This document shows, piece by piece, positions 13,661 through 24,129 of a stretch of DNA of 28,794 nt. The notes beneath the pieces are model-generated. The model had not been told where the DNA came from, did not search any database, and worked only from the letters and a program-made list of their open reading frames with translations. Source of the DNA: a virus; IMG/VR virus record IMGVR_UViG_3300025806_000010. One strand, given 5' to 3'. Position numbers and translations under genes: made by a program. The stretch's first letter is position 1. Each line of letters opens with the position of its first letter.

Positions 13661-14405
13661 ACCAAGACTAAAAGGGAATAAGCTAAAAGCGTTCCAACAC
13701 CTCACTAAAAAGGAGAGGCGTATTCTTGTCGTTGGTGATTTGCATTGCCCGTTTGATTTAGATGGGTATTTAAAGTTCCTTTTAGACACTTATGCGAAGT
13801 GGAATTGTAACCAAATTTTGATGATTGGCGATGCCATCGATAACCATTATTCGAGCTTTCATCAGACGGATGCAGATGGTTATGGAGGGGGTAAAGAACT
13901 TGATATGGCAATTAAACGACTATCAAAATACCGCGATGCATTTGCAGAAATATGCGATAAAAAAATAGATATTTGCACGGGCAATCACGATAGAATAATA
14001 ATGCGCAGGGCGTTCGATTCGGATATTCCTGCCAGGTGGATTAAATCATATAACGAAGTTCTCGGTACGGATTGGAACTGGGTAGAAAGTATCGTTTATG
14101 ACGATGTGCTTTATGAACACGGGGAAGGTGGTCAGGCTAAGACTAAAGCAAAGAATAATATGATGTCAAGTGTTTGCGGTCACACTCATACAGCTTGTGG
14201 CGTTGAGTGGTTCGTGGGTAAAAAATATCGGGTGTTTGGGATGCAGGTGGGATGCGGTGTTGATGCTTCAACTTACGCTGCTGCCTATGCTAAGAACTTT
14301 AAGAAACAAGCAATAGGATGTGGGATTGTACTCGGAGGACATACAGCCATAAACGTGCTGATGCCTTTGGGTAAACCTAAGCCAAAGAAGGGGACGGTTT
14401 TATAA
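13611..14405 (+). CDS. Calcineurin-like metallophosphoesterase
   Basis: Has the VVGDLHCPFD, GDAIDN, GNHD and GHTH motifs. The start is uncertain: GTG at 13611 or a downstream TTG, with no ATG before the first motif. Confidence 0.75.
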   Translation: MSWVLFHYAYHFLKDVRPRLKGNKLKAFQHLTKKERRILVVGDLHCPFDLDGYLKFLLDTYAKWNCNQILMIGDAIDNHYSSFHQTDADGYGGGKELDMAIKRLSKYRDAFAEICDKKIDICTGNHDRIIMRRAFDSDIPARWIKSYNEVLGTDWNWVESIVYDDVLYEHGEGGQAKTKAKNNMMSSVCGHTHTACGVEWFVGKKYRVFGMQVGCGVDASTYAAAYAKNFKKQAIGCGIVLGGHTAINVLMPLGKPKPKKGTVL

Positions 14406-14521
14406 CTTTCTTTTTAAAAGTTTCACGTTCTTTCATTACCTTTCACGTTTTTTGCAATAGAAAACCCCCTACTTCCCTATGAGAAAAAGCGAGGGGCGTT
14501 CACCAAATATAAACAACGTTG

Positions 14522-15337
14522 CTAAGGTACAAAAGTATCTTCCATTTTCTGAATAGCTTTGAAGATTTCGTGTGCGACTTGTGGAACTATCGCGTTTCCG
14601 TATGCTTTGATGCTTTCTTTTCGCCACTTTGAAAAGGTAATGCCGTCCAGTTCTTTGGGAATCCCATCATTTCCTCCACAAAGAGGGGGTTGAGTTGGGA
14701 AGTTTTCCCAGTCGTTTGATTCGCTAATGGTGTCGGGAGCATCCCCATCGCTGCAAAGTGGTCGAGGTACAAAGCTCTCTTTTCTCCCCCGTATTTCTTC
14801 TGACGATCCTGACATTCTTCTAACGTCCGTTCCCGTACTTGGCTCGTTACGGTAGGCAACAAACCAAATTCTATCCCTTCGGTGGGGTGCGTTTTTACCG
14901 CAAGCTGGAAGTAAATACGGTGTGACTTCGTAGCCTTCATTTTCCAAGTCAGCGCACACCTGCTCGAACTGAACTCCCCCTGACCAATTAAGTAAGCCGC
15001 GAACGTTTTCGCCCACAACGTAGCGCGGGGAAACTTCCCGAATGACTCTAAGCATCTCGCCCCATAAGTTGCGTTCGTCTTCCGTTCCTTTTCTAAGTCC
15101 TGCGTTTGAAAAAGGTTGACATGGGAATCCTCCTGAGATAATATCAATTCTTCCAGCGTAGTTTGATGCGTTAAAGGTTTTGACATCTTTGTATAGTTTT
15201 GAATTTGGAAAGTGGTGTTTAAGAATCTTTTGGCAGAATGGATCGTACTCACAATGAAAGACGTTTTCCCACCCCATCCATTCGGCTGCCAGGTCAAACC
15301 CACCTATTCCGCTAAATAGTGATCCGTGCCTAAGCAT
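14522..15337 (-). CDS. dcm: DNA (cytosine-5)-methyltransferase, short form (271 aa)
   Basis: Has motif I LFSGIGGF, motif IV GGFPCQPFS, motif VI GENVRGLL, motif VIII HRRDRIWFVAY and motif X YGNAIVPQVA. I confirmed the frame-0 translation by reverse-complementing the sequence myself. Confidence 0.85.
   Translation of the reverse strand: MLRHGSLFSGIGGFDLAAEWMGWENVFHCEYDPFCQKILKHHFPNSKLYKDVKTFNASNYAGRIDIISGGFPCQPFSNAGLRKGTEDERNLWGEMLRVIREVSPRYVVGENVRGLLNWSGGVQFEQVCADLENEGYEVTPYLLPACGKNAPHRRDRIWFVAYRNEPSTGTDVRRMSGSSEEIRGRKESFVPRPLCSDGDAPDTISESNDWENFPTQPPLCGGNDGIPKELDGITFSKWRKESIKAYGNAIVPQVAHEIFKAIQKMEDTFVP
14587..15186 (-). CDS. Nested +1-frame ORF inside dcm (199 aa from the first ATG; the frame is open from 15303)
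   Basis: 238 stop-free codons lie wholly inside dcm on the same strand. The ATG at 15186 has an A-rich context (aaaactatacaaagATG) like other starts here. The product has a protein-like pattern: SQEDSHVNLF, CALTWKMK, GLLPTVT, GMLPTPLA, QLNPLFVEEMMGFPKNWT. Confidence 0.45.
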   Translation of the reverse strand: MSKPLTHQTTLEELILSQEDSHVNLFQTQDLEKERKTNATYGARCLESFGKFPRATLWAKTFAAYLIGQGEFSSSRCALTWKMKATKSHRIYFQLAVKTHPTEGIEFGLLPTVTSQVRERTLEECQDRQKKYGGEKRALYLDHFAAMGMLPTPLANQTTGKTSQLNPLFVEEMMGFPKNWTALPFQSGEKKASKHTETR

Positions 15338-15689
15338 TAGATAGTTGTTTTATTAATGCCGACTTAACGCTACTAATTGAGTTGATGCGCTCAGATAAAG
15401 AAAGTATGTAGCTTTCTACTTCGTCTTTGTTAGTGGCTATGTAGTAACCTTTAGACGTAGCGATAAGCAAAGGCACAAGGTGTTGTGTGCGTATGTGATG
15501 CACAATCTTTCTTAGCCTGGTATCGGTTATCTTACACCCTCCTTCTTTTAGAGCTTTACAAATATCCTTATTAGTGATGGCTTTGCCTTTGCCTAATTTG
15601 GTAGATAAACCATGCACGACAATAGGCAACAGCGTATGTAGTTCGTAGTGGTTTAGTTCGTGGGTTTCCCTTTCGAAGTTTGTTATCAT
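15330..15689 (-). CDS. Hypothetical protein, probable winged-helix DNA-binding fold
   Basis: 119 aa with an 8-nt overlap onto the dcm start. The RLRKIVHHIRTQHLVPLLIATSKGYYIA pattern looks wHTH-like. Confidence 0.35.
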   Translation of the reverse strand: MITNFERETHELNHYELHTLLPIVVHGLSTKLGKGKAITNKDICKALKEGGCKITDTRLRKIVHHIRTQHLVPLLIATSKGYYIATNKDEVESYILSLSERINSISSVKSALIKQLSNA

Positions 15690-15782
15690 TGTTTTAAGAT
15701 TTAATTAGAAAAAAAAGACACAAAGCGAGTAACCAAATTAATATAGTTATTCGTTTGTGCTTTAGTGAAGATGGATTGTACA

Positions 15783-15893
15783 TCATTCTTCTTCGGTAAT
15801 AAATTCGCAATGCTCTAAGCAGTCGGGGCATATTCCGTATTCAGTCATAAAGCAAGAAGCCCCACAACAATCGCTTACTAATTCGTCTTCCAT
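15783..15893 (-). CDS. Small acidic Cys-rich protein (36 aa), zinc-binding candidate
   Basis: Hand-translated: MEDELVSDCCGASCFMTEYGICPDCLEHCEFITEEE, with 6 Cys plus one His. Confidence 0.35.
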   Translation of the reverse strand: MEDELVSDCCGASCFMTEYGICPDCLEHCEFITEEE

Positions 15894-21879: not shown

Positions 21880-22106
21880 GTAATAGAAAAGATATGCGCG
21901 AAGCAAAGAAGCATTTAACCAATGCGCAAGACTACCTAATTTTCACGGTAGTAAAAGATAAGATATTTGTGGACTACCAAAACAATTCGTCTTTGAATAT
22001 CATAGGAGATTTAGCAGTAGCGAATAAAGACTTCGCCAACTACCTCGAAGAAGTTTTACGTGCCATTAAAAACCAAGAAGATGAAGACGCAAAAGGTTCA
22101 GATTGA
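21876..22106 (+). CDS. Hypothetical protein (76 aa)
   Basis: Track ORF trimmed to the ATG at 21876 (ATGA overlap with the upstream stop). Confidence 0.4.
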   Translation: MSNRKDMREAKKHLTNAQDYLIFTVVKDKIFVDYQNNSSLNIIGDLAVANKDFANYLEEVLRAIKNQEDEDAKGSD

Positions 22107-22614
22107 AACCATAAAGTTAGATCCAAGCAACCCACGTTCTATAACGAAGGAAGCCTTTGAAAGACTAAAGAAAAGCATAACGGACTTTCCCGAAATGCAA
22201 TCGGTTAAACCTTTGGTGGTAGCTGATGGATATGCCCTTGCAGGTAATATGCGGTTACTGGCTTATAAAGATTTGGGATACCGTGAGCTTCATGTTTTAG
22301 ATGTGTCAGAATGGTCACAAGCGAAGCGCGATGAGTTTATGATTAAAGATAACACGCACTACGGAACTTGGGATTACGATGCCTTAGCAAACGAATGGGA
22401 AACGTTACCTCTTACCGATTGGGGTTTGGATGTATGGGAACCCGAAATAGAAGAATTAAAAGAAGAAGCACCCCCCACTTTTTTAAGGGGAATTAATATC
22501 GACTTTATTATGGAAGATTATGATGTTGCTAAAGAGCTTTTAGAATCCTTAAAGAAATCAGATACTTACATAGGCGCAATAGTATTAGAGGCACTAAGAA
22601 AGCAGTTTAAATAA
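22081..22614 (+). CDS. ParB-like nuclease domain protein
   Basis: Has IETIKLDPSNPRS...VKPLVVADGYALAGNMRLLAYKDLG. The start was trimmed to the ATG at 22081. Confidence 0.6.
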   Translation: MKTQKVQIETIKLDPSNPRSITKEAFERLKKSITDFPEMQSVKPLVVADGYALAGNMRLLAYKDLGYRELHVLDVSEWSQAKRDEFMIKDNTHYGTWDYDALANEWETLPLTDWGLDVWEPEIEELKEEAPPTFLRGINIDFIMEDYDVAKELLESLKKSDTYIGAIVLEALRKQFK

Positions 22615-22633
22615 CTTTACAAAACTTGACAAA

Positions 22634-22978
22634 ATGAAAGTATCGGATGCAGAGTTTTGGAGTGAACTAAGAAAGAATAAAGCACTTTATTCAAGGACGG
22701 CAAGGGCGTTAGAATTAAAGTACAATATTACGTACACAAGACAAGCGGTAAAGCATAGGGCAGAAAAAGACTTAGACCAATTAAACGACATAGTAGAAGA
22801 AAACTTAGACGTAGCCGAAGAAGTACATCATAATCTAATGATGAGCCAGGACGAAAAGATTCAGATTAAGGCTTCGCAGTTCTATTTGAAGAATAAAGGA
22901 AAAGGGAGGGGCTATGTAGAGAAACAACAAATAGAGATAAACGAACCGAAGCCGTTTAAGTGGTTCGATGACGAGTGA
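22634..22978 (+). CDS. Terminase small subunit candidate
   Basis: 114 aa with an N-terminal HTH-like segment, lying immediately upstream of TerL and overlapping it. Confidence 0.45.
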   Translation: MKVSDAEFWSELRKNKALYSRTARALELKYNITYTRQAVKHRAEKDLDQLNDIVEENLDVAEEVHHNLMMSQDEKIQIKASQFYLKNKGKGRGYVEKQQIEINEPKPFKWFDDE

Positions 22979-24129
22979 AGCAACCTACGACATACTACCA
23001 AGCTAAAAAGTCTAAGGCTAAAATACAAGTCCATCAAGGGGGTTCGCGTAGCGGAAAGACCTTCTCACTTTGTCAGGTGATAATTCAGCTTTGTTTTAGG
23101 AATAGGGGTGCAGGTATTGTCATTACAATAGTACGTAAAACCTTCCCTGCTTTACGTTCATCGGTTATGCGTGACTTTATGCAGATACTTACCGAAGGGG
23201 GGAACTACTATGAAGAACACCACAATAAAAGCAATGCTACCTATAACCTATTTGGAAACCTTATCGAATTCATTTCTTGCGACCAGCCTTCCAAATTGAG
23301 AGGCCGTAAAAGAAATCTTTTGTACGTAAACGAGTGTAACGAAATCAGCCTGGAGGATTGGAGGCAATTACTACTTAGAACAACGGGAAGGATATTTATA
23401 GACTACAATCCATCGGACGAGCATCATTGGATCTATGACCATATCTTAGAACGCGAAGACGTAGACTTCTTTCAAACCACATACTTAGATAACCCTTTTT
23501 TAGAACAATCCGTTATAGACGAGATAGAACGCTTTAAAGAAACGGATGAGAACTTTTGGCGCATATACGGTCTTGGTGAACGAGGGGTAAACGTGTCAGC
23601 TATATTCCCACAATGGCAAGTCGCTGATGCTATCCCTGAACGTGCCAAGCTCGTAGCATACGGATGCGACTGGGGGTTTACCAACGATCCTACCGCTATC
23701 GTTTCGGTATGGCGTGAGGACTATTCTTTATACATTCAAGAACACCTTTACAAGACGGGATTAACGAACCGAGATATTAGTTTAGAGTTAGACAAATTAT
23801 ACTTAGAAAGAACGCCCATCATTTGCGATAGTGCCGAACCTAAAAGTATTGAAGAACTGCACCGCTTAGGGCATAACGTTAAACCGTCCAAGAAAGGACC
23901 TGATTCAATTCGGTTAGGTATTGACATAATGAAACGTCACAAGATATTTGTATTGAAGGATTCCTTAAACGCACAAAAGGAGTTCCGCAATTACCGATGG
24001 GAGGTAGACCGAAATGGGGTGCAGTTAAATAAACCAATAGACCACAACAACCATATTATCGATGCAGTCAGGTATGTATGTATCAACCGCATCGGAACTT
24101 CTTACTCAGGCAAATACTTTATCGCATAA
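22975..24129 (+). CDS. terL: Terminase large subunit (PBSX/XtmB-like, short form)
   Basis: Has Walker A GGSRSGKT, a Walker B-like LLYVNECNE, and a nuclease region GCDWGFTNDPTA...CDSAEP...DHNNHIIDAVRY. GTG start. Confidence 0.85.
   Translation: MKQPTTYYQAKKSKAKIQVHQGGSRSGKTFSLCQVIIQLCFRNRGAGIVITIVRKTFPALRSSVMRDFMQILTEGGNYYEEHHNKSNATYNLFGNLIEFISCDQPSKLRGRKRNLLYVNECNEISLEDWRQLLLRTTGRIFIDYNPSDEHHWIYDHILEREDVDFFQTTYLDNPFLEQSVIDEIERFKETDENFWRIYGLGERGVNVSAIFPQWQVADAIPERAKLVAYGCDWGFTNDPTAIVSVWREDYSLYIQEHLYKTGLTNRDISLELDKLYLERTPIICDSAEPKSIEELHRLGHNVKPSKKGPDSIRLGIDIMKRHKIFVLKDSLNAQKEFRNYRWEVDRNGVQLNKPIDHNNHIIDAVRYVCINRIGTSYSGKYFIA

What the first reader, a model, noticed from the sequence alone, without database searches (positions are those of the whole stretch)
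14587..15337. Two protein-like reading frames on the same strand of the C5-methyltransferase gene
Frame 0 (15337..14522, 271 aa) carries m5C-MTase motifs I, IV, VI, VIII and X.

The +1 frame stays open for 238 codons (15303..14587) entirely inside this gene. Under a uniform-codon null, (61/64)^238 is about 1e-5.

The +1 product does not look like frame-shift noise:
- From the ATG at 15186, in an A-rich start context like other genes here, it reads MSKPLTHQTTLEELILSQEDSHVNLF...CALTWKMKATKSHRIYFQLAVKTHPTEGIEFGLLPTVTSQ...GMLPTPLANQTTGKTSQLNPLFVEEMMGFPKNWT.
- The ...E.MMGFP..W element looks like canonical motif IX (...RLQGFPD..), which frame 0 appears to lack.
- It sits just upstream of the frame-0 motif X.
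- Where +1 looks structured, frame 0 is hydrophilic and low-complexity (NEPSTGTDVRRMSGSSEEIRGRKES).

I see two explanations. One is an overprinted second gene. The other is recoding, with a shift from frame 0 to +1 after motif VIII and back to frame 0 before motif X, giving a canonical MTase alongside a short form.
Basis: partly seen in the sequence, partly recalled or inferred. Interest (0 to 1): 0.85.

Follow-up and report, generated by a model that had tools for sequence, protein, structure and literature searches.

The report
Two-frame, two-subunit phage cytosine methyltransferase gene
This phage DNA cytosine methyltransferase gene is read in two frames, the main frame making the catalytic core and the +1 frame inside it making a second protein with the DNA-recognition part and motif IX; the layout is known from one E. 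coli enzyme (M.EcoHK31I) but here is conserved in phage and plasmid genes from several bacterial phyla and is unmodelled by Pfam and NCBIfam.

Summary
On the minus strand, frame 0 (15337..14522, 271 aa) is an intact C5-MTase with motifs I-VIII and X. The +1 frame is open for 238 codons (15303..14587), with an ATG at 15186 giving 199 aa.

This is real dual coding, not chance. In 130 of 131 distinct related genes the +1 frame stays open with motif IX. Shuffles that keep the MTase protein give about 96 open codons against 231 observed, and +2 behaves as null.

The frame under purifying selection switches along the gene (dN/dS, frame 0 / +1):
- Motifs IV-VIII: 0.18 / 1.05
- Variable region: 2.08 / 0.17
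- Motif IX block: 0.62 / 0.18
- Motif X: frame 0 only

The +1 motif aligns to Pfam PF00145 motif IX, which frame 0 lacks. Each frame is also kept stop-free where it is unconstrained, and an ATG precedes the +1 ORF in 70 of 70 loci. That fits two polypeptides (alpha core, beta TRD + motif IX) and not double frameshifting.

The closest known case is M.EcoHK31I. It differs in that the conserved TRD-like modules sit in beta. Rare relatives (L174/L175) have duplicated the overlap block so that each copy keeps one reading.

No expression or activity was tested. Verdict: new variant of a known kind, interest 0.6.

The parts
14522..15337 (-). alpha gene (frame 0): 271-aa C5-cytosine MTase core with motifs I-VIII and X, without a conserved TRD or motif IX
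   Evidence: ORF. PF00145 E = 9e-48 and phrog_363 residues 1-268. TIGR00675 dcm. The AF2 model shows the large domain only, with pTM 0.61, and superposes on M.HhaI and M.HaeIII over about 164 columns.
14587..15186 (-). beta ORF (+1 frame), 199 aa from the ATG at 15186 to the TAG at 14589..14587. The stop-free +1 stretch extends upstream to 15303.
   Evidence: ORF. phrog_1008 E = 4e-16. 2157 database relatives. +1 is open in 130 of 131 distinct relatives. An ATG is present in 70 of 70 loci. The leader is A-rich, in the top 2% of internal ATGs.
15116..15133 (-). alpha motif IV (GGFPCQ, catalytic Cys). The +1 reading here (EDSHVN) is an unconstrained passenger.
   Evidence: Sequence. Over alpha codons 64-90, pN/pS is 0.17 for alpha and 1.9-2.5 for +1, which equals the non-coding baseline.
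14879..15013 (-). First doubly constrained stretch: alpha codons about 109-153 (motif VI to motif VIII) over beta 'RCALTWKxKATKSHRIYFQL...HPTEG'
   Evidence: Sliding pN/pS is 0.27-0.62 for alpha and 0.53-0.84 for beta, against a non-coding +1 baseline of 1.8-2.4. Beta has invariant or near-invariant W81, K82, F93, Q94, L95. AF2 predicts a hairpin at residues 78-98 with pLDDT 72-78.
14855..14884 (-). alpha motif VIII (HRRDRIWFVA). The same bases read HPTEGIEFGLLPT in +1, where beta's first LLPT module begins.
   Evidence: Sequence. Alignments.
14698..14865 (-). beta TRD-like region (GLLPTVTSQ...KKYGGEKRALYLDHFAAMGMLPTPLANQTTGKTS), constrained in +1 only. Frame 0 here is an unconserved hydrophilic linker that is merely kept open.
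   Evidence: dN/dS is 0.17 for beta and 2.08 for alpha. Sliding values are 0.18-0.30 for beta and 1.6-3.0 for alpha. Frame-0 consensus is only 0.26-0.37. Alpha pLDDT is 27-34 here. Beta pLDDT is 77-87 at residues 121-150. Frame 0 has 0 stops where beta-synonymous shuffles give 3.2 per locus.
14644..14697 (-). beta motif IX (QLNPLFVEEMMGFPKNWT), encoded by the same bases as alpha 'FPTQPPLCGGNDGIPKELD'
   Evidence: PF00145 positions 270-295 are matched only when this +1 segment is present. It aligns to M.HhaI 268-288 'GKTRKLHPRECARVMGYPDSY' (weak score). The +1 alignment shows 87% consensus with H(pos1) < H(pos2) < H(pos3).
14609..14716 (-). Second doubly constrained stretch (alpha codons 208-243: NDWENFPTQPPLCGGNDGIPKELDGITFSKWRKESI), overlapping beta motif IX and its tail
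   Evidence: pN/pS is 0.45-0.89 for alpha and 0.25-0.47 for beta. Frame-0 position 3 is less variable than position 1. In L174/L175 this block is duplicated, and each copy keeps one reading while the other reading has decayed.
14576..14602 (-). alpha motif X (YGNAIVPQV). The beta stop (TAG, 14589..14587) falls inside it.
   Evidence: PF00145 positions 296-324. Over alpha codons 244-261, pN/pS is 0.11 for alpha and 1.99 for +1.

Best explanation
The locus encodes a two-polypeptide DNA (cytosine-5) methyltransferase from one stretch of DNA read in two frames.

Alpha (frame 0, 271 aa) supplies the AdoMet-binding and catalytic large domain, motifs I-VIII plus X. A roughly 45-residue unconserved linker joins them where a normal enzyme has its small domain.

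Beta (+1 frame, 199 aa from the ATG at 15186) supplies the missing small domain: one to three (rarely four) 'LLPTP' TRD-like modules and motif IX. Ahead of them is an N-terminal stretch whose first ~45-60 residues are free to vary, with constraint rising further on.

The two chains are inferred to assemble non-covalently into an active, sequence-specific enzyme that methylates phage DNA, as shown experimentally for M.EcoHK31I.

Shown here:
- Both frames are conserved and open.
- The frame under purifying selection switches 0 to +1 to 0 along the gene.
- Motif IX is in +1.
- A start codon is conserved.

Inferred, not shown:
- Independent initiation of beta.
- Physical association of alpha and beta.
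- A requirement of beta for activity or specificity.
- The biological role.

Likely origin (inference): a single-chain enzyme suffered frame-shifting indels around its small domain and was rescued by internal initiation and fragment complementation. Each frame then acquired about 35 codons of new constraint over the other.
For: (1) In 80 viral loci chosen by alpha (50-75% identical), +1 is open for a mean of 231 of 296 codons. Alpha-synonymous shuffles give 96, most loci have 0 of 300 shuffles reaching the observed value, and +2 equals its null (43 against 47).

(2) In 80 loci chosen only by beta motif IX patterns, 80 of 80 have an intact alpha frame with 0 stops, and beta is always alpha+1. 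Pooled, 130 of 131 distinct genes have the +1 ORF with motif IX.

(3) dN/dS on the same bases: motifs IV-VIII alpha 0.18, beta 1.05; TRD alpha 2.08, beta 0.17; motif IX block alpha 0.62, beta 0.18. The non-coding +1 baseline is 1.8-2.4.

(4) Passenger stretches are kept open. +1 over motifs IV-VIII has 0 stops in 70 loci against 3.0 per locus expected. Frame 0 over the TRD has 0 stops against 3.2 per locus expected.

(5) An ATG lies in +1 upstream of the motif IV overlap in 70 of 70 loci. The window's ATG has an A-rich leader like the real starts here.

(6) The +1 segment restores the PF00145 motif IX match, 24.3 against 11.8 bits, and lines up with M.HhaI motif IX.

(7) The alpha AF2 model shows the large domain only, with residues 167-226 disordered.

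(8) In L174/L175 the alpha frame ends after motif VIII and the beta frame continues through TRD, IX, the alpha-type block and X. The overlap block is duplicated and each copy keeps one reading. So all these pieces belong to one enzyme and both readings are functional.

(9) The same layout occurs in Bacteroides, Porphyromonas, Lacticaseibacillus and Microcystis phages and in Bacillus, Leptospira and Nostoc plasmids.

(10) Precedent: M.EcoHK31I beta is encoded entirely in another frame within alpha, carries motif IX, is needed for activity, and its N-terminal ~42 residues are dispensable (PMC2836561; PMC3404938).
Against: - No expression, interaction or activity data exist for any member examined here.
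- No Shine-Dalgarno sequence was found ahead of the beta start in Bacillus or Lacticaseibacillus relatives, where one would be expected, so how beta is initiated is open.
- AF2 of beta alone is weak (pLDDT 61, pTM 0.28), and no alpha+beta complex could be modelled.
- The HhaI motif IX alignment is weak on its own (6.2 bits).
- L050/L051 carry one +1 stop just before the first LLPT module.
- A close relative (L002) has the frames swapped and lacks the catalytic PCQ.
- Direct sequence comparison with M.EcoHK31I was not possible.
Confidence: 0.78

Rival explanations
1. Recoding: ribosomes shift from frame 0 to +1 after motif VIII and back to frame 0 before motif X. This would make a single-chain canonical MTase (I-VIII, TRD, IX, X), possibly alongside the short frame-0 form.
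For: The path of purifying selection along the DNA is exactly 0 to +1 to 0. A 0/+1/0 chimera scores better against PF00145 than frame 0 alone (171.2 against 163.8 bits, and the C-terminal part 24.3 against 11.8 bits). In L174/L175 a single +1 shift after motif VIII would give a complete single chain.
Against: - It does not explain why +1 is kept stop-free for about 90 codons upstream of the needed shift point, or why frame 0 is kept stop-free through 37-152 codons of TRD.
- It does not explain the conserved +1 ATG with stops just upstream of it.
- No frame-0 stop or rare-codon pause lies at the junction, and the junction sequences differ between distant relatives.
- Two efficient shifts in one gene have no precedent that I know of (own knowledge).
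- The experimentally studied analogue makes two separate chains.
Confidence: 0.07
2. Beta is a real overlapping gene whose product has a job unrelated to methylation, for example a regulator or anti-defence factor. Alpha alone would then be the complete methyltransferase.
For: Alpha keeps a constrained block of its own between the linker and motif X (pN/pS 0.45-0.89). Alpha's phrog_363 family is aligned full length. The beta N-terminal half shows some constraint of unknown purpose.
Against: - Beta's most conserved part is a recognisable C5-MTase motif IX in the correct position relative to motif X.
- Alpha has no conserved or foldable TRD.
- In L174/L175 the beta TRD and motif IX are fused in-frame to motif X.
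- The number of LPTP modules varies as a specificity domain would.
Confidence: 0.08
3. Shadow ORF: the +1 frame is open and looks conserved only because of the amino-acid and codon composition of a conserved MTase, and it is not translated.
For: The +1 frame of this gene family is stop-poor by composition: shuffles give about 9 stops in +1 against about 21 in +2. The conservation of beta's N-terminal ~60 residues is indeed a by-product of alpha.
Against: - Shuffles that keep protein and codon usage rarely reach the observed open length.
- Stops are normal outside the ORF and absent inside it.
- In the TRD and motif IX region the codon-position pattern and dN/dS are those of +1 coding (0.17-0.18), while frame 0 exceeds 1.
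- Insertions of whole LPTP modules preserve both frames.
Confidence: 0.02
4. Artefact or decay: two compensating indels from sequencing or assembly, or a pseudogene of a single-chain MTase.
For: Some relatives do show extra frame breaks (L002, L087, L088).
Against: - The identical alpha protein is on six independent contigs (P0239).
- The same frame relationship holds in about 130 distinct genes from many samples, and in finished phage and plasmid genomes.
- Both frames are under purifying selection.
Confidence: 0.01

Closest known systems
M.EcoHK31I (E. coli; Lee, Kam & Shaw 1995; as described in PMC2836561 and PMC3404938)
   Same: - Heterodimeric C5-MTase.
- The small chain is encoded entirely inside the large chain's gene in another reading frame on the same strand.
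[quoted passage not shown]
- The N-terminal part of the small chain is dispensable or only affinity-modulating, which matches the unconstrained N-terminus of beta here.
   Different: - For M.EcoHK31I the predicted TRD is assigned to alpha. Here alpha's variable region is unconserved, has dN/dS above 1 and is predicted disordered, and the conserved TRD-like modules are in beta.
- Here beta covers 73% of alpha.
- Two ~35-codon stretches are constrained in both frames.
- The arrangement is shared by a large phage and plasmid family.
- Direct sequence homology to M.EcoHK31I could not be tested.
M.AquI (Agmenellum quadruplicatum; as described in PMC3404938)
   Same: A natural two-subunit C5-MTase split within the variable region. 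The rare relatives L174/L175 have this division: alpha carries I-VIII, and beta carries TRD, IX and X.
   Different: In the window motif X stays in alpha, so the split is not a simple N/C bisection. As summarised in the paper read here, the M.AquI subunits divide the enzyme in the variable region rather than one gene being nested inside the other.
Single-chain C5-MTases (PF00145; M.HhaI, M.HaeIII)
   Same: The alpha core is a standard member (35% identity to M.HhaI over the large domain). Beta motif IX aligns to HhaI motif IX.
   Different: The small domain (TRD and motif IX) is not in the same reading frame as the rest.
Long same-strand overlapping (overprinted) genes of viruses
   Same: About 600 nt of same-strand overlap, with segments where a second frame has acquired constraint over an older one.
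   Different: The two products are parts of one enzyme rather than unrelated proteins. Much of the 'second' frame is probably ancestral coding sequence displaced by frameshifts, not de novo.

Membership tests
C5-cytosine DNA methyltransferase (PF00145 / TIGR00675) | Profile match above the curated cut-off, with motifs I, IV (PCQ), VI (ENV), VIII and X | tested here: met
   Alpha scores 163.8 bits against PF00145 (cut-off 22) and 141.6 bits against TIGR00675 (cut-off 100.65). The motifs are read.
C5-cytosine DNA methyltransferase (PF00145 / TIGR00675) | Motif IX and a TRD in the same polypeptide, between motifs VIII and X | tested here: not met
   The frame-0 C-terminal part matches only profile positions 296-324. 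Frame-0 residues 163-207 are unconserved, have dN/dS 1.6-3.0 and pLDDT below 35.
M.EcoHK31I-type heterodimeric MTase | Small-subunit ORF lies entirely within the large-subunit gene, on the same strand, in a different frame | tested here: met
   Beta 15186..14587 lies inside alpha 15337..14522 in the +1 frame. The arrangement is conserved in 130 of 131 relatives.
M.EcoHK31I-type heterodimeric MTase | Large subunit has motifs I-VIII and X; small subunit has motif IX | tested here: met
M.EcoHK31I-type heterodimeric MTase | TRD resides in the large subunit (as described in PMC2836561 and PMC3404938) | tested here: not met
   The conserved TRD-like LLPTP modules are in beta (dN/dS 0.17). Alpha is unconstrained there (2.08).
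M.EcoHK31I-type heterodimeric MTase | Both polypeptides are made and both are required for methylation | not testable with these tools
   This needs expression and activity assays.
M.EcoHK31I-type heterodimeric MTase | Sequence homology to M.EcoHK31I alpha and beta | not testable with these tools
   The 1995 paper is not held, no supplement text is held, and the sequence is not in any searchable collection used.
M.AquI-type split MTase | Large subunit has I-VIII plus proximal TRD; small subunit has distal TRD plus IX and X | tested here: not met
   In the window motif X is in alpha. The relatives L174/L175 do fit this division.
Programmed ribosomal frameshift genes | A defined shift site with the zero frame closing soon after it, and no need for the alternative frame to be open far upstream | tested here: not met
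   Frame 0 never closes. +1 is open 90 or more codons upstream of any useful shift point in 70 of 70 loci. No conserved junction sequence is seen across lineages.

The most novel reading that the evidence does not exclude
A very large, multi-phylum family of phage and prophage C5-methyltransferases may be obligately two-frame enzymes. More than 8000 alpha relatives and more than 2000 called beta ORFs were seen here. In these genes the DNA-recognition domain would be delivered in trans from a +1 ORF spanning most of the catalytic gene. The two frames carry reciprocal overprinted segments, insertions of whole LLPTP modules (which must keep both frames open) may retune specificity, and occasional duplication resolves the overlap. 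This family-wide architecture appears to be unrecognised: Pfam and NCBIfam have no model for beta, and annotators call one frame or the other. It would be one of the clearest long same-strand overlapping gene pairs outside small viruses.
Probability: 0.45. Interest if true: 0.75.

Novelty: new variant of a known kind. Interest (0 to 1): 0.6.

Why it matters
- **Annotation.** Gene callers allow only one same-strand product per locus. Databases therefore hold thousands of 'hypothetical' beta proteins and short 'dcm' genes that look complete but lack a recognition domain. In one deposited Porphyromonas phage the MTase frame itself was missed.
- **Specificity prediction.** Any attempt to infer target sequences of phage MTases from the annotated protein would look at the wrong polypeptide.
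- **Evolution.** The locus gives a clean, statistically strong example of long (about 600 nt) same-strand dual coding in phages of cellular hosts. It shows a reciprocal switch of the selected frame, two doubly constrained segments, and natural 'unfolded' derivatives that show how such overlaps are resolved.
- **Engineering.** Natural heterodimeric C5-MTases have been used as platforms for targeted methylation. A large natural repertoire of alpha/beta pairs could be useful there.

Tried and rejected
- **Megablast of the region against phage genomes:** no match.
- **Shine-Dalgarno ahead of the beta start** in Lacticaseibacillus and Bacillus relatives: nothing convincing, so the initiation mechanism is unresolved.
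- **Promoter and terminator scan of 14300-15800:** counts no different from shuffles.
- **AF2 of beta alone:** low confidence overall, so not used for fold search.
- **PDB sequence search with the beta TRD/IX + motif X segment:** no hits.
- **Pfam and NCBIfam on four beta proteins** from distant lineages: no family.
- **Reading the 1995 M.EcoHK31I paper or the 2009 supplement** for sequences: not held.
- **Literature searches** for motif strings and for 'motif IX' plus 'alternative reading frame': nothing relevant.
- **High-coverage hits to my artificial chimera:** P0184 and P0128 sit on contigs with several extra frame breaks (L087, L088). I treated them as unreliable. P0122's contig was not on record.
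- **Genome-contig scan with single-sequence beta patterns:** only five loci, not analysed further.
Full report
**Observation.** On the minus strand the window has a 271-aa ORF (15337..14522) and, one base out of phase, a 238-codon stop-free stretch (15303..14587). Its only ATG is at 15186, giving 199 aa. Frame 0 is an unmistakable C5-cytosine methyltransferase: PF00145 E = 9e-48, phrog_363 matched over residues 1-268, and TIGR00675. The +1 product has no Pfam or NCBIfam match. It does match phrog_1008, an automatically built family labelled 'DNA methyltransferase', at E = 4e-16. It also has 2157 relatives among predicted proteins, nearly all without any Pfam domain. With shuffles that keep the MTase protein and its codon usage, 1 of 300 reach 238 open codons.

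**Conservation of the second frame.** Eighty viral-contig loci were chosen by similarity to the frame-0 protein (50-75% identity), and all have that frame intact. In them the +1 frame is open for a mean of 231 of 296 codons, against 96 in shuffles. Most loci have 0 of 300 shuffles reaching the observed length. The +2 frame equals its null, 43 against 47. To avoid ascertainment through alpha, a second set of 80 loci was collected using only patterns from the +1 motif block, EMMGFP and WTxLPFxxG. All 80 have an intact MTase frame with no stop, and the second ORF is always in the MTase +1 frame. Pooling both sets, 130 of 131 distinct genes have the long +1 ORF with the MG[FYWL]P motif. The exception, L050/L051, has one +1 stop over an altered motif VIII.

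**Which frame is selected where.** Nei-Gojobori dN/dS was computed on the same nucleotides in each frame.

| Region | alpha (frame 0) | beta (+1) |
|---|---|---|
| Motifs IV-VIII | 0.18 | 1.05 |
| Variable region | 2.08 | 0.17 |
| Motif IX block | 0.62 | 0.18 |
| Motif X (alpha codons 244-261) | 0.11 | 1.99 |

The baseline for a non-coding +1 frame, taken upstream of the +1 start and after its stop, is 1.8-2.4. A sliding window refines this picture:
- The first ~45-60 residues of the +1 protein, over motif IV, are at baseline (1.9-2.5), so they are unconstrained.
- Over alpha codons ~109-153 both frames are constrained (0.27-0.62 and 0.53-0.84).
- Over codons 163-216 only +1 is constrained (0.18-0.30, against 1.6-3.0 for alpha).
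- Over codons 208-243 both frames are constrained again.

Codon-position entropies tell the same story. Each frame is also kept stop-free where it is not the constrained one. The +1 frame has 0 stops over motifs IV-VIII in 70 loci, against 3.0 per locus expected. Frame 0 has 0 stops over the variable region, against 3.2 per locus expected under shuffles synonymous in +1.

**What the +1 frame encodes.** Its best-conserved block, QLNPxFVEEMMGFPxNWT, is C5-MTase motif IX. The frame-0 C-terminus alone matches PF00145 positions 296-324 (11.8 bits). With the +1 segment in front, the match extends to 270-324 (24.3 bits, above the cut-off). In a PDB search the block lines up with M.HhaI 268-288, 'GKTRKLHPRECARVMGYPDSY', followed by motif X, although that stretch alone scores weakly. 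Upstream of motif IX lie one to three (rarely four) 'LLPTP' modules. Gain of these modules lengthens both ORFs, and both stay open; Bacteroides phage BKO1-TP3 has four. An AF2 model of alpha shows only the large domain (pTM 0.61) and superposes on M.HhaI and M.HaeIII over about 164 columns. Residues 167-226 are at pLDDT 27-47. Beta alone models poorly (pLDDT 61). Its best part is the TRD module (77-87).

**Mechanism.** The genetic information runs 0 to +1 to 0, which either double frameshifting or two polypeptides could read. Several points favour two polypeptides:
- The +1 frame is held open for about 90 codons upstream of the point where a shift would be needed.
- Frame 0 is held open across 37-152 unconstrained codons.
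- An in-frame ATG lies just upstream of the motif IV overlap in 70 of 70 loci, with +1 stops immediately before it in many.
- In the window that ATG has a 60% A leader, in the top 2% of internal ATGs and typical of real starts in this Shine-Dalgarno-less genome.
- No zero-frame stop or conserved slippery site is present.

No ribosome-binding site could be recognised in Bacillus or Lacticaseibacillus relatives, so how beta is initiated remains open.

**Natural variants.** In two short contigs, L174 and L175, the alpha frame ends about 25 codons after motif VIII. The beta frame continues through TRD, motif IX, an alpha-type block (WENFPTQSPV...ITFSKWRNESIKAYGNAIVPQV) and motif X. The overlap block is present twice. 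The first copy keeps the beta reading, and its alpha reading has decayed to 'RWKNFKIESRILGGNDGIP'. The second copy keeps the alpha reading, and its beta reading has decayed to 'TSQLNPQYLKKMIVMLKNW'. This is what resolution of a truly dual-coding segment by duplication should look like. It also places beta's TRD and motif IX in the same enzyme as motif X.

**Breadth.** The same layout is present in the following:
- Bacteroides phage BKO1-TP3 and BS-TP4.
- A Porphyromonas phage, where the depositors annotated the +1 ORF as hypothetical and missed the MTase frame.
- Lacticaseibacillus phages R9.1 and R23.9.
- Microcystis phage Mwe-JY08 and Synechococcus phage S-H1.
- RefSeq 'dcm' genes on Bacillus, Leptospira, Nostoc and Lacticaseibacillus plasmids.

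The window itself is a tailed-phage genome with portal, large terminase, ParB-like and metallophosphoesterase genes. An identical alpha protein occurs on six metagenome contigs from JGI and ENA samples.

[quoted passage not shown] In that description alpha carries motifs I-VIII, X and the predicted TRD, and beta carries motif IX. Beta's first ~42 residues are dispensable, and further N-terminal deletions weaken association with alpha (PMC2836561; PMC3404938). M.AquI is split in the variable region, with IX-X in the small subunit. The window matches the M.EcoHK31I architecture on every testable point except TRD location, which here is in beta. L174/L175 match the M.AquI division. I found no paper in the held library that extends this architecture beyond those two enzymes, and curated profile libraries have no beta model. 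Homology to M.EcoHK31I itself could not be tested.

**Verdict.** The finding is real, and the 'second gene' reading is right, in the specific form of a beta subunit of the same enzyme. It is a new variant of a known but very rarely documented kind. The family-wide conservation, the reciprocal selection pattern and the resolved derivatives are, as far as I could check, undescribed. Translation of beta and its requirement for activity remain to be shown.

Noticed in passing
L002 5001-5906 (ENA ERZ2485795 contig_7436, 54.7 kb; close relative of the window): The homologous gene is a single 301-aa ORF (P0016) that starts in the alpha frame (motif I), runs through the beta reading, and returns to the alpha frame before motif X. 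The catalytic PCQ is gone ('GIPLPT' in the other frame), and motifs VI-VIII and beta motif IX sit in separate short ORFs. It may be a decayed gene, a frame-swapped variant, or assembly indels.
   Followed up: partly
L084 843-1799 and 1102-1716 (Porphyromonas phage phage018a_AFR5B1, BK068099.1): The deposited annotation calls the +1 (beta) ORF a 'hypothetical protein' and does not annotate the intact 319-codon C5-MTase frame that contains it. The neighbouring annotated 'methyltransferase' is a different enzyme with a DPPH motif.
   Followed up: partly
L178 526-1341 (Leptospira interrogans plasmid p2, NZ_CP043879.1): The beta-frame ATG lies 4 nt after the annotated TTG start of the dcm gene and has a better upstream purine-rich stretch. 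The +1 ORF therefore spans 262 of 271 codons, and the first ATG on the mRNA is in the beta frame.
   Followed up: no
L050 / L051 (IMG/VR 3300005662_000940 and 3300017766_001126): These are the only alpha-intact loci with a stop inside the +1 ORF. The stop coincides with an unusual motif VIII (APHRIERIW instead of APHRRDRIW). The downstream beta TRD and motif IX are still intact.
   Followed up: partly
window 22060-24129 (+): The large-terminase ORF (22975..24129, GTG start, 384 aa) matches only the C-terminal part of the phrog_2 profile (positions 267-591 of 807). The two ORFs just upstream (22060..22614 and 22634..22978) might hold the N-terminal part, so the terminase gene may be split or interrupted.
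   Followed up: no
window 15330-15689 (-): A 119-aa ORF of unknown function (phrog_2113) overlaps the alpha start by 8 nt. It is syntenic upstream of the MTase in L001 and L002, so it is probably co-transcribed with it.
   Followed up: no
L089 (MEHH01000174.1, Candidatus Heimdallarchaeota MAG AB_125, 6 kb contig): A beta-type TRD and motif IX match (47% identity) lies at the edge of a short contig binned into an Asgard archaeon MAG. This is probably a viral or contaminant contig rather than archaeal sequence.
   Followed up: no
window 14461-14500 (-), just downstream of the alpha stop: By eye, CCCCT ... AGGGG followed by TTTT could form a terminator-like hairpin with a long loop. The pattern scan did not call it, since its loop limit is 8 nt.
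   Followed up: no
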